Source of the DNA: Escherichia coli O157:H7
Lineage (GTDB): Bacteria > Pseudomonadota > Gammaproteobacteria > Enterobacterales > Enterobacteriaceae
Strand: one strand, 5' to 3'
DNA length: 64,000 bases
Assembly: GCF_013167455.1 (NCBI RefSeq)
Contig: NZ_CP038328.1
This document shows, piece after piece, positions 36,001 through 39,000 of the stretch; position 1 is the first letter of the stretch, and each line of letters begins with the position of its first letter. The position numbers were made by a program.

Positions 36001-39000
36001 GATTCGTACCTCGCAGAGGTCTTTCCTCGTTACCAGTGCCGTCACTATGACGGTGATACAGATGACGATCAGGGCGATTAACATCGCCTTTTGCTGCTTC
36101 ATAGCCTGCTTCTCCTTGCCTTTCGGCGCGTAAGAGGCTAACCTACATGTGTCTAGCATGAAATTGGCCTCAGATTAATGTTAGGCGTCTTGCAGGACGC
36201 GTAATGTTAACTGGGGCTTTTCTCTGTCTACCTTACGGTGGCATGCCCGAGGCAGACAGCCTCAAGCACCCGCAGCAATTCTACTTAACTCTCGCTTTAC
36301 CGCAAACCGTTTTTACCCGATATGGGAATTCCCATATCGTAATGAATTCAGTTCCCTAGTCGATCCATCAAAAACACAACCAGGCAGTAAACGCCCACAA
36401 CAGCAATAACAGCCAGCGCACCTTCCATTGCCAGTGAAATATCATCCGACATATTCCCTCCTTTGGTGTGAATCCCGGCGAACGTTTTTACCCCCACCGA
36501 CAAATAACATATACTAAAAAATCAATAGCTATAGCAACGCCTGTAATTGCAAAGGCTTCAGGCCAGATCATTGGCGCACCTCCTGCGGCGGTTCTGGTAG
36601 CGGCATCCAGTCGGTTACATTGCGGCTCTGTGTTTCGAAAAATTCATCACCATTACGGACTACATCAAAAAACTCACCGTCTCGATATTGCGCATAAAGA
36701 ACGAATGCGCCATCACATAAAATAATTACGTGCTGACCATCATCCGGCATTCGCTCACTACAGCTTATCCAACCATCCGGAGTTACCGGATAGTTGGTTG
36801 ACGTTTCCGAGATTTCCCGAAAATTATTGGTTGACGAACCCTTATTTTCCCGAAAGTTTCCAGCCTGAAGCATGGCGGCGCGGTGACACCAGATAATCCA
36901 GCCAAGCGCCATATCCCATACCATGTAATCTCTATCGCCATTTTTTGCTCTGCGGCGATCTACAGATTCTCCGAAACGCTTCTCCATAAATAATTCATAG
37001 GCTGCTCGTTCATCCGATACTGCTGCCAGTGATGCCAGCGCAATCCGTGCCAGCTCTTCCGCTTCTTCTGCTGGAAGCACAACGTTGCTACCCGGTCCGT
37101 ATGTTTCGCGCCAATGCTGGATTGTCAGCAGTCGATCTTTGGTAATAGTGGTCATAGCTATTTCACCTTAATCTCAACATTTCGCAGCTTTAGCTCTACT
37201 GGCATGTCTGACTTTCCTGTTAATGCTAATGCGAGATTTTCTGGAGTAATGAGAGCAGTTATTGTTTTCCCCATCGCCAGACGAATAATCATTCGTATTT
37301 CGCGATCGTCACATGCTCCTGGTCGAACAATTGATATTTGTCCGTTCATCTCACTCTCCTTTGATGCGAATGCCAGCGACGCGTAATGCGTGTTCTAGGT
37401 CAATCAGGTAAAGCCAACTGCCATTTTCTTTAGGTATCATGACATGTCGCTCATCTGCATTTATCGGGTGTCCATATCGAAGGTCGTAGCGAGTCGGTAA
37501 TTGAACTTCCCGCGCTTCCAGTTCAGCAATACGCTTGCTCCCATCAGAGATAACGCCTTCGTAATACTCACGCTGCTCGTTGAGTTGTGATTTTGCTTCT
37601 TCCAGTCCATCCAGCAAATCAGCGATAATATCCGCTTCCCGATGACGGATGTGACGCTTAAACGCAGCAAGAGCCGCATCACAATCCCGTTCAGCATTTG
37701 GGCTGTCCGGGGTAGCCTGATACCACGCCAGCGTCGATTGATAGTTTTGTGCTGCCTCACGCAGTGCCTGATAGTCAATCTTGCCCACTGGCTGCCTCCT
37801 TTGCCGGGATTTCTAACTTTTGAGTGGTTGTATCAAATTCAAACAACTTAACCACGTCATCAAACAGGACATAATCACCATCAGGATCTTCAGTCATATC
37901 AGCGCCACAATCCTGACCGCACGAGTCGCAACCTCCCATATCAAGCTCGTATCGCTTCAGGTTCGCGATATTTGATAAATTCAGCGCCAGTATAGCCAGA
38001 TCATTAACCTCGTCTGCGATATACCCTGCACCATGTCCATACATTTCAATGCGGGATATGATTTCTTCTACACGTTGTTTTGTGATCGTCATTTTTCTCT
38101 TCACTCCGATATACAAGGATTACTACACCCCCTCTGCTGATTGCGCGAGCTGGATCCCCTGGTTCCATGCCGTCAATTCCGAAGGCTTCGAAAAATGCAT
38201 CCATTGCCTTCTGGCGTTGCTCCTGCTTACGGCGTTTATTCCATTTTTTCATGAACAACAGTGACAGCCATCGTCCGCTGCAGAACATAATGTAGAAATA
38301 ACCAAGAAGTGCCAGGCCGGCGTTCAGGGCCATATCAATCGTTATCGCCGGGTCAATATTCACTGCCCACCTCCTGAAAAATCACCGCATGGCCCGGTTT
38401 CTCCTCCAGTGCCAGCTCAGCCCCTGCACCTGCCGACTGCTGCCAGCCTTTCAGCATGTAAACCGCATCCACGCAACGGAGCATTGCCATGCAAATATCC
38501 ATGTAGTGTGGCTGAGTCAGCCCGTCCGGAAGTACTGCCGGGTTTAAAACGGTATGCCCTTCCCGTTTCAGCACCTCTTCCGTTTTGTGAAATGCCTCGC
38601 GGTTAAAATTTTCATATCCCGTCATCGGACCGGCGATATAAACCCTCACCCTCACTCCTGAACCCTCCTGTCGAAATAAACGTAGTTATTCACTGCGCCC
38701 AACTTCATCCCAAACTTTTCGGCAATTTCCCGTCGGGGTACACCACGCTGATGCAGTTGCCACGCCAGCTCAATATCACGCTGTGAACATTTGGCTGACT
38801 GGTGATAATCACCCCGTAACATCATGCTGATACCCAGTTCCCGCGCTTTCGTCCTGACGGCTGACTCACTACGGCCAATCAGATAACCGATGCTTTCGAC
38901 TCTCATCGTTCCCGCACACTGCCGGAGTATCAGGATTTCAGCCCAGCGCCACTTCTTCCAGCCACTCACCGCTGCTGCTCTCTGGTGGCGGTAATATCCC

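What the first reader, a model, noticed from the sequence alone, without database searches (positions are those of the whole stretch)
38353..38655. DUF4406 nucleoside deoxyribosyltransferase-like gene in the early region
The motif VYIAGPMTG… is typical of the nucleoside 2-deoxyribosyltransferase-like fold. In phages these proteins may act on nucleotide pools or signalling nucleotides, so it is a candidate counter-defence or metabolic gene.
Basis: partly seen in the sequence, partly recalled or inferred. Interest (0 to 1): 0.25.

Follow-up and report, generated by a model that had tools for sequence, protein, structure and literature searches.

The report
Prophage DUF4406 gene, probable nucleotide N-glycosidase
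This is a real, already annotated 100-residue gene in an E. coli O157:H7 lambda-like prophage; it has the fold and key catalytic residues of enzymes that cut the base off (deoxy)nucleotides, its role is untested, and it is an ordinary find.

Summary
Window 38353-38655 (minus strand) is a 100-aa ORF that matches Pfam DUF4406 (E 2e-33). It is 100% identical to a RefSeq gene named "DUF4406 domain-containing protein" in E. coli O157:H7. It lies in a Rac/lambda-like prophage, downstream of the O/P-like replication genes.

The motifs point to a nucleotide substrate rather than a nucleoside one:
- Tyr6-x-x-Gly9 and Ser74-x-Gly76-x-x-x-Glu80 align with Tyr24, Ser98 (phosphate-binding) and Glu104 (nucleophile) of human DNPH1.
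- At least 26 protein clusters fuse DUF4406 to a dATP/dGTP diphosphohydrolase domain, like the characterised phage enzyme DmtZ-DutZ.

I therefore favour a dNMP N-glycosidase. Three caveats apply:
- The usual catalytic Asp is Cys55 here.
- The fold stops after strand 4.
- This allele carries private A84E and L87P changes beside the catalytic Glu.

No experiment exists for any DUF4406 protein. A counter-defence role is speculation. Low interest; already known.

The parts
38353..38655 (-). DUF4406 coding sequence (100 aa including the GTG-coded Met; stop codon included)
   Evidence: ORF list; PF14359 E 2e-33; phrog_355 E 4e-43; identical to the PGAP CDS WP_001310212.1
38664..38669 (-). Shine-Dalgarno-like AGGAGG, 8 nt before the GTG start. 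The start overlaps the stop of the upstream gene as GTGA (38655-38652), which suggests translational coupling
   Evidence: Read directly from the minus-strand sequence
38617..38640 (-). Codons 6-13, YIAGPMTG: strand 1 and the following loop. Tyr6 and Gly9 align with Tyr24 and Gly27 of human DNPH1 and with Tyr6 of DmtZ
   Evidence: hhalign; family conservation Tyr/Phe6 59 of 60 and Gly9 60 of 60
38491..38493 (-). Codon Cys55, at the position of the catalytic-triad Asp/Asn of the NDT superfamily (DNPH1 Asp80, DmtZ Asn77). It is Cys in the enterobacterial subgroup and Asp in the actinophage and fused subgroup
   Evidence: hhalign; alignment A3; column counts Cys 253, Asp 35
38416..38436 (-). Codons 74-80, SAGAGAE: the Ser-x-Gly-x-x-x-Glu motif. 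Glu80 is the predicted nucleophile. Ser74 is equivalent to the 5'-phosphate-binding Ser of DNPH1
   Evidence: Glu80 and Gly76 invariant, Ser74 59 of 60; aligned with DNPH1 Ser98/Gly100/Glu104; role of rat Ser87/Gly89/Glu93 from PMC3834327
38395..38406 (-). Codons 84-87, carrying the allele-private substitutions A84E and L87P in helix 4, just after the catalytic Glu
   Evidence: Ala in 95% of the sampled family domains (296 sequences). Glu84 and Pro87 are seen only in this allele and its 99%-identical cluster P0001. Ala at Glu+4 is also present in TbNDT, LmNDT, BcmB, DNPH1 and DmtZ
38652..39056 (-). Context only: upstream HTH gene (longest ORF shown; PGAP starts it at 38969). Not a constant partner of DUF4406
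   Evidence: Sub-threshold Sigma70_r4_2 and HTH_68 Pfam hits (both below their gathering cut-offs), and phrog_323; variable upstream neighbours in 80 related loci
38046..38363 (-). Context only: downstream DUF4752 gene, overlapping the DUF4406 stop by 11 nt. Not a constant partner
   Evidence: PF15944 E 7.5e-39; only 5 of 80 related loci have this downstream neighbour

Best explanation
The locus is a genuine single-domain gene of the DUF4406 family, a shortened version (four strands, about 95 residues) of the nucleoside 2-deoxyribosyltransferase / DNPH1 fold. It is carried in the early rightward operon of a Rac/lambda-like prophage of E. coli O157:H7, and is probably translated coupled to the upstream gene. 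The most likely activity is hydrolysis of the N-glycosidic bond of a 2'-deoxynucleoside 5'-monophosphate, giving the free base plus deoxyribose 5-phosphate. A related possibility is transfer of the deoxyribose 5-phosphate to another base, as DmtZ does. In this model Glu80 attacks C1' as nucleophile and Tyr6 positions it and selects against a 2'-OH. Ser74, Gly76 and the Gly9-Thr12 loop hold the 5'-phosphate. Cys55 occupies the site of the usual general-acid Asp. The enzyme would act alone on the nucleotide pool during phage DNA replication, for example by removing unwanted or modified dNMPs. What is shown: the gene, the family, the fold, the residue correspondences, the domain fusions, and the stand-alone mosaic context. 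What is inferred: the substrate class, the mechanism and the biological role. This particular allele carries A84E and L87P next to the catalytic Glu and may be weakened or inactive.

For: Catalytic residues: Glu80 and Gly76 are invariant, Ser74 is 59 of 60 and Tyr/Phe6 is 59 of 60. hhalign places Tyr6/Gly9/Ser74/Gly76/Glu80 on DNPH1 Tyr24/Gly27/Ser98/Gly100/Glu104, and on DmtZ Tyr6/Thr97/Gly99/Glu103. In rat DNPH1 the equivalent Ser87 and Gly89 bind the phosphate and Glu93 binds the sugar (PMC3834327).

Nucleotide versus nucleoside: enzymes that use nucleotides have Ser at Glu-6 (DNPH1; BcmB). Nucleoside transferases have Asp there (TbNDT and LmNDT 'DCGTAFE').

Fusions: at least 26 clusters carry PF14359 and PF18909 in one chain, with DUF4406 N-terminal and the dATP/dGTP diphosphohydrolase domain C-terminal. 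This is the architecture of DmtZ-DutZ, which converts dATP to dAMP to adenine (PMC12884076). In phage Ariel, a DUF4406 gene, a weak (just sub-threshold) PRA-PH/MazG-like gene and a PF18909 gene lie within five genes of each other.

Stand-alone module: the flanking genes vary across 80 enterobacterial loci.
Against: No DUF4406 protein has been assayed. The hhalign scores against single sequences are weak (E 0.1-0.15). The canonical catalytic Asp is replaced by Cys55 in this subgroup, whereas the fused proteins that support the dNMP idea all have Asp there and share only 34-45% identity with this protein. The protein ends after strand 4, so it lacks the segment that in DNPH1 supplies Ser117' and Met119' from the partner subunit. 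No dNTP pyrophosphatase is encoded next to it in this prophage. A84E hits a position that is Ala in 95% of the family and in every characterised relative compared.
Confidence: 0.5

Rival explanations
1. It is a true nucleoside 2'-deoxyribosyltransferase, as PHROG and many GenBank phage records name it. It would swap bases between deoxynucleosides for salvage.
For: phrog_355 carries that label. The best sequence and Foldseek hits are NDTs. Asn38-Pro39 align with DmtZ Pro57, a Pro said to be conserved in transferases and to exclude water.
Against: The residue at Glu-6 is Ser, as in nucleotide hydrolases, not the Asp that holds the 5'-OH in NDTs. PF05014 does not match this protein at E <= 0.01. 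The C-terminal elements of NDTs are missing. The fusions are to a dNTP diphosphohydrolase, whose product is a dNMP and not a nucleoside.
Confidence: 0.12
2. It is an N-glycosidase of a ribonucleotide or another 5'-phosphorylated N-riboside (CMP or hydroxymethyl-CMP like MilB/BcmB, an AMP derivative like LOG, or NMN).
Against: Position 6 is Tyr in this protein and in most of the family. In the NDT superfamily this Tyr is held to exclude ribo substrates (PMC12884076, section 22). The fusion partners act on dNTPs.
Confidence: 0.12
3. It is a counter-defence enzyme that destroys a nucleotide immune signal. Candidates are a modified dNMP alarm such as m6-dAMP, or a TIR-, CBASS- or Pycsar-type signal.
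Against: There is no experimental link, no PADLOC hit and no paper. The sequence motifs resemble DNPH1/MilB more than TIR. The cited preprint reports DNA-mimic proteins, not glycosidases, as the counter-defence.
Confidence: 0.07
4. In this prophage the copy is a decaying or catalytically dead allele, or a non-enzymatic nucleotide binder or decoy, so it has no enzymatic role here.
For: A84E and L87P are private to this allele, and A84 is Ala in 95% of the family and in DNPH1, TbNDT, LmNDT, BcmB and DmtZ. The same prophage in strain TR01 carries three genes marked as pseudogenes.
Against: The ORF is intact and the Tyr6, Ser74, Gly76 and Glu80 positions are unchanged. The AF2 model remains confident (pLDDT 84 for residues 81-90). 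The allele is retained at >=99% identity in 277 records, although these may be clonal.
Confidence: 0.15

Closest known systems
Pfam PF14359 (DUF4406), as annotated in RefSeq (WP_001310212.1)
   Same: Full-length match far above the gathering threshold. The identical protein is already annotated in E. coli O157:H7 genomes.
   Different: Nothing differs in family terms. This allele has the private A84E and L87P changes.
DNPH1/Rcl, 2'-deoxynucleoside 5'-phosphate N-hydrolase (PDB 4P5E, 8QHQ, 2KHZ, 4FYI)
   Different: Only about 20% identity, and no sequence-level hit at E <= 10. Cys55 stands where DNPH1 has Asp80. The part after strand 4, which supplies Ser117'/Met119' across the dimer, is missing.
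DmtZ of Gordonia phage Ghobes and DmtZ-DutZ of Arthrobacter phage Wayne (dAMP N-hydrolase / deoxyribose-5-phosphate transferase; PMC12884076)
   Same: A phage-encoded NDT-superfamily enzyme. Tyr6 and the Gly-x-x-x-Glu motif align. The N-terminal NDT-like domain fused to a C-terminal dNTP pyrophosphatase is mirrored by the DUF4406-PF18909 fusions.
   Different: DmtZ is 161 aa and, according to its authors, has no Pfam model. Structural similarity to this model is weak (Foldseek E 3.4e-3, TMq 0.61, 14% identity). DmtZ serves 2-aminoadenine DNA synthesis, and no sign of that pathway was seen among the genes examined in this prophage.
Nucleoside 2-deoxyribosyltransferases (PF05014; T. brucei 2A0K, L. 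leichmannii 1F8X, C. thermalis 8PQR)
   Same: Best sequence-profile and Foldseek hits. The catalytic Glu and Tyr are shared.
   Different: NDTs have Asp at Glu-6 where this protein has Ser. NDTs are 135-165 aa and have a fifth strand and a C-terminal helix. PF05014 is not matched at E <= 0.01.
PA1492 / DUF1937 (PDB 1T1J), an uncharacterised structural-genomics protein
   Different: 18% identity. Its function is also unknown, so it adds no mechanistic information.

Membership tests
DUF4406 (PF14359) | Whole-protein HMM score above Pfam's gathering cut-off (22 bits) | tested here: met
   115.1 bits, E 2e-33, residues 4-92 on profile positions 2-90 of 91
DUF4406 (PF14359) | Family-invariant residues Gly9, Phe22, Pro43, Gly76 and Glu80, and near-invariant Ser74, Trp71, Tyr51 and Asn38-Pro39 | tested here: met
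   All are present in this protein. The exception is the near-invariant Ala84, which is Glu here
NDT / DNPH1 superfamily (nucleoside 2-deoxyribosyltransferase-like fold) | Rossmann-like alpha/beta fold shared with solved members | tested here: met
NDT / DNPH1 superfamily | Catalytic Glu nucleophile at the start of helix 4 | tested here: met
   Glu80 is invariant. It aligns with TbNDT 'GTAFE', DNPH1 Glu104 and DmtZ Glu103
NDT / DNPH1 superfamily | Catalytic Tyr in strand 1 | tested here: met
   Tyr6 aligns with DNPH1 Tyr24 and DmtZ Tyr6
NDT / DNPH1 superfamily | Third triad residue, Asp (Asn in TbPDT and DmtZ) | tested here: not met
   Two hhalign alignments and the alignment with Asp-bearing DUF4406 members place Cys55 at this site. 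Asp53 lies two residues earlier but is poorly conserved
DNPH1-type nucleotide N-hydrolases | Ser (not Asp) six residues before the Glu, binding the 5'-phosphate | tested here: met
   Ser74 aligns with DNPH1 Ser98. The role of the rat equivalent Ser87 is described in PMC3834327
DNPH1-type nucleotide N-hydrolases | Second phosphate-binding Ser and a Met contributed by the partner subunit (rat Ser117', Met119') | tested here: not met
   The protein ends after strand 4 and the alignment stops at DNPH1 'RILCL'. No equivalent segment exists
DNPH1-type nucleotide N-hydrolases | Release of the free base from dNMPs | not testable with these tools
   Needs an enzyme assay
Nucleoside 2-deoxyribosyltransferase proper (PF05014) | PF05014 match, and Asp at Glu-6 holding the 5'-OH | tested here: not met
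   No PF05014 hit at E <= 0.01 for this protein. The residue is Ser74 instead of Asp
Known anti-phage defence or anti-defence components | Match to a PADLOC model, or a published anti-defence role | tested here: not met
   No PADLOC hit. No literature for DUF4406 or PF14359

The most novel reading that the evidence does not exclude
DUF4406 proteins of temperate enterobacterial phages could be a minimal, Cys-variant branch of the NDT fold whose real job is to erase a nucleotide danger signal. One candidate is a modified dNMP such as m6-dAMP, released when host DNA is degraded and sensed by PUA-Cal-HAD-type systems. That would make them a new enzymatic class of anti-defence proteins, not pool-housekeeping enzymes.
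Probability: 0.06. Interest if true: 0.7.

Novelty: already known. Interest (0 to 1): 0.2.

Why it matters
The gene itself is routine: it is already annotated, and a related sequence is found in about one in five complete E. coli genomes (1114 of 5426). What is worth knowing is that DUF4406 is a very large phage-associated family (9,087 clusters at 50% identity) with no experimental characterisation. Its motifs and its fusions to dATP/dGTP diphosphohydrolase domains now give a specific and cheap hypothesis to test: dNMP N-glycosidase. Confirmation would correct the widespread 'nucleoside 2-deoxyribosyltransferase', 'MazG-like' and 'dCMP deaminase' labels in phage genomes. It would also add a nucleotide-pool editing step to the early programme of many temperate phages.

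Tried and rejected
1. A single-sequence search of PDB sequences gave only chance hits to SIRP-beta. A family profile was needed.

2. NCBIfam and PADLOC gave no hits.

3. Twenty longer homologues (194-358 aa) from the exhaustive search were scanned for a second domain. None had one, so they are probably gene-call fusions or unknown extensions.

4. The actinophage records labelled 'MazG-like pyrophosphatase' (Ariel gp162) and 'deoxycytidylate deaminase' (Daob gp55) over the match looked like fusions. They are genes of about 125 aa; Ariel gp162 scanned as DUF4406 only, and Daob gp55 was not scanned but is too short to hold a second domain. These are mislabels.

5. Looking up genomic context for three distant representatives gave mostly short contigs. 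One showed a temperate-phage early region (Dam, SSB, HNH, Bro-N, integrase) with no informative partner.

6. A neighbour analysis first suggested tandem DUF4406 copies. A BLAST check showed this was a single-linkage clustering artefact.

7. Asp53 was first considered as the triad Asp. It was rejected in favour of position 55 because of conservation (Asp53 in only 23 of 60), two hhalign alignments and the Asp-bearing subgroup.

8. Literature searches for DUF4406, PF14359, DUF1937/PA1492/YtoQ and phage NDT anti-defence found no functional study.

Full report
**Observation.** The window holds an ORF at exactly 38353-38655 on the minus strand: 100 codons plus a stop, beginning MRVRVYIAGPMTGYENFNREAF....
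- The GTG start at 38655 overlaps the TGA of the upstream gene (GTGA). An AGGAGG sequence sits 8 nt upstream.
- A second in-frame GTG two codons later would give the N-terminus seen in most homologues.
- The stop overlaps the start of the next gene by 11 nt, so the gene is packed into an operon.
- Pfam DUF4406 matches at E 2e-33, 115 bits against a cut-off of 22. PHROG 355, 'nucleoside 2-deoxyribosyltransferase', matches at E 4e-43.

**Where it is.** The 303 bases are 100% identical to a CDS in many E. coli O157:H7 chromosomes that PGAP calls 'DUF4406 domain-containing protein' (WP_001310212.1).
- A related sequence (>=80% identity) occurs in 1114 of 5426 complete E. coli genomes, and 277 records are >=99% identical.
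- In strain TR01 the gene lies in a Rac/lambda-like prophage integrated beside potC/potD. The window is collinear with that annotation from the gene to potD.
- On the minus strand, after the immunity region (racR-like repressor on the plus strand; HTH gene), the order is: ydaT-like gene, O-like gene (DnaT domain), P-like gene, DUF1627, a small HTH gene, DUF4406, DUF4752, a phrog_3126 gene, Ead/Ea22, DUF551, hokD, DUF968, RusA.

'Early region' is therefore correct. The intact phage Rac-SA53 has the same arrangement, with the DUF4406 gene called rac19.

**Fold.**
- A single-sequence search of PDB sequences found nothing real.
- A profile of 60 diverse homologues found T. brucei NDT (E 1.7e-4), then L. 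mexicana NDT, BcmB, BlsM, PA1492 and MilB at weaker scores.
- An AlphaFold2 model built on that alignment is confident (pLDDT 90.8, pTM 0.84). It shows four strands alternating with three helices.
- Foldseek against the PDB returns NDTs, PA1492, DNPH1 and MilB at TMq 0.68-0.77.

The match covers nearly all of this protein but only about half to 60% of the targets. DUF4406 ends after strand 4 and lacks the fifth strand and the C-terminal helix.

**Residues.** Across 60 diverse members, Gly9, Phe22, Pro43, Gly76 and Glu80 are invariant. Tyr/Phe6, Ser74, Trp71, Tyr51, Asn38-Pro39 and Asn18 are each conserved in at least 53 of 60, and Arg19 in 49 of 60.

I recalled the human DNPH1 sequence from memory and validated it against PDB entries; it is identical over residues 20-162 apart from engineered mutations. 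hhalign of the family profile against it pairs:
- Tyr6 with Tyr24
- Gly9 with Gly27
- Ser74 with Ser98
- Gly76 with Gly100
- Glu80 with Glu104
- Cys55 with Asp80

The same comparison with DmtZ of Gordonia phage Ghobes, a characterised phage enzyme (sequence from KX557278), pairs Tyr6 with Tyr6, Pro39 with Pro57, Cys55 with Asn77, Gly76 with Gly99 and Glu80 with Glu103. Both hhalign scores are weak (E 0.1-0.15) because the template is a single sequence. They agree with each other and with the structure searches.

In rat DNPH1, Ser87 and the backbone of Gly89 bind the 5'-phosphate, and Glu93 holds the sugar hydroxyls (PMC3834327). In DmtZ, Tyr6, Asn77 and Glu103 are the triad, and Y6A and E103A abolish activity (PMC12884076).

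The residue six positions before the Glu discriminates substrate class in the sequences I could compare:
- Ser in enzymes that use nucleotides: DNPH1 'PSLGVGYE' and BcmB 'SPGTHIE'.
- Asp in nucleoside transferases: TbNDT and LmNDT 'DCGTAFE'.

DUF4406 has Ser in 59 of 60 sequences.

**Fusions and context.**
- BFVD hits to the model include two phage proteins named 'dATP/dGTP diphosphohydrolase N-terminal domain-containing' at 32-39% identity.
- To test this, I searched with a chimeric query made of this protein plus the PF18909 domain of phage Ariel gp166. Among the top 120 hits, at least 26 clusters carry both PF14359 and PF18909.
- Pfam scans of six of them show DUF4406 at the N-terminus and dGTP_diPhyd_N at the C-terminus, both above threshold.
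- PF18909/DUF5664 proteins convert dATP, dGTP and dUTP to dNMPs. The DmtZ-DutZ fusion of phage Wayne, which has the same architecture, converts dATP via dAMP to adenine (PMC12884076).
- In phage Ariel a DUF4406 gene, a weak (just sub-threshold) PRA-PH/MazG-like gene and a PF18909 gene lie within five genes. In Gordonia phage Sam12 a MazG-like gene is three genes away.
- Elsewhere the gene sits in replication or recombination modules, next to helicase, sliding clamp, DnaQ, RusA and exonuclease genes.
- In 80 enterobacterial viral contigs the genes on either side vary widely, so there is no obligate partner.

**Most likely mechanism.** Taken together, the best-supported reading is a stand-alone (deoxy)nucleoside 5'-monophosphate N-glycosidase of the DNPH1/DmtZ type. 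It would be expressed with the replication genes and would act on the dNMP pool. I put this at about 0.5.

**Caveats that lower confidence.**
1. No DUF4406 protein has been studied.
2. The triad Asp site is Cys55 in this protein and in most enterobacterial members (253 of 316 aligned). It is Asp in the actinophage and fused members that provide the fusion evidence, and these share only 34-45% identity with this protein.
3. The segment that completes the DNPH1 active site across the dimer is absent.
4. This allele has two private substitutions, A84E and L87P. Ala84 is Ala in 95% of the family, and the Ala at Glu+4 is also present in DNPH1, TbNDT, LmNDT, BcmB and DmtZ.
5. The same prophage in TR01 has three annotated pseudogenes, so this copy may be impaired.

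**Rivals.**
- A true nucleoside deoxyribosyltransferase (0.12). The Ser at Glu-6, the missing C-terminus, the absence of a PF05014 match and the fusion partner all argue against it.
- A ribonucleotide or NMN-type N-glycosidase (0.12). MilB is a close structural hit, but Tyr6 argues for deoxy substrates.
- A counter-defence enzyme that erases a nucleotide signal (0.07). The TIR-like fold, the accessory-region location and a report of an m6-dAMP-triggered defence system make it conceivable, but nothing tests it.
- A decayed or non-catalytic allele (0.15).

**Comparison and novelty.** The protein is a member of PF14359 by the family's own criterion. It belongs to the NDT/DNPH1 superfamily by fold and by the Glu and Tyr, but it fails the canonical Asp test and lacks the C-terminal elements. 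It is not a member of PF05014. Gene, family and fold relationship are all already in public annotation. What this analysis adds is the argument for a nucleotide rather than a nucleoside substrate, the DUF4406-PF18909 fusions, the Cys55 subgroup and the private A84E/L87P changes.

**Verdict.** This is a correct but ordinary finding. Interest 0.2; novelty 'already known'.

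Noticed in passing
Loci: L002:2474-2854, L003:2468-2845, L097:9693-10178: Probable mislabels in GenBank phage records. 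Ariel gp162 ('MazG-like pyrophosphatase') scanned as a DUF4406 protein only. Daob gp55 ('deoxycytidylate deaminase') lies over the DUF4406 tblastn match and is about 125 aa, but was not scanned. Ghobes gp53 (AOE44404.1, the characterised DmtZ) is annotated 'deoxyuridine triphosphatase'.
   Followed up: partly
Proteins P0319, P0351, P0122, P0137: A common E. coli variant of 203-207 aa has DUF4406 at the N-terminus followed by about 100 residues with no Pfam match. One cluster has 667 member sequences and another was seen on 161 contigs. The extension is unexplained.
   Followed up: partly
L074 and L082 (both from contig IMGVR_UViG_2608642260_000002): One viral contig carries two diverged DUF4406 genes (62% and 54% identical to the query) about 10 kb apart. 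O157 genomes hold up to four copies in different prophages.
   Followed up: no
window 35947-36102 (minus strand): A hokD-type type I toxin gene (MKQQKAMLIALIVICITVIVTALVTRKDLCEVRIRTGQTEVAVFTAYEPEE) lies in the same prophage early region, about 2.3 kb downstream of the DUF4406 gene.
   Followed up: partly
window 42036-42065 (minus) and 42718-42746 (plus): Two strong sigma-70-like promoter matches (10 of 12 and 11 of 12) lie on either side of the racR-like repressor ORF at 42133-42609. The minus-strand site faces the ydaS/ydaT-replication-DUF4406 operon and is probably its early promoter. The plus-strand site lies downstream of the repressor ORF, so its role is unclear.
   Followed up: no
window 38966-39056 and 40170-40378: The longest ORFs of the HTH gene and the P-like gene overlap their upstream neighbours by 91 and 209 nt. 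PGAP chooses shorter starts (38969 and 40177) that leave overlaps of 4 and 8 nt.
   Followed up: partly
L001 (strain TR01) 3555-5085 and 14476-14877: The same prophage in strain TR01 has three CDSs marked as pseudogenes: DUF6645, RusA and a 3'-5' exonuclease. In the window an intact 124-aa ORF (34063-34437) occupies the RusA position, so the window comes from a slightly different prophage variant.
   Followed up: no
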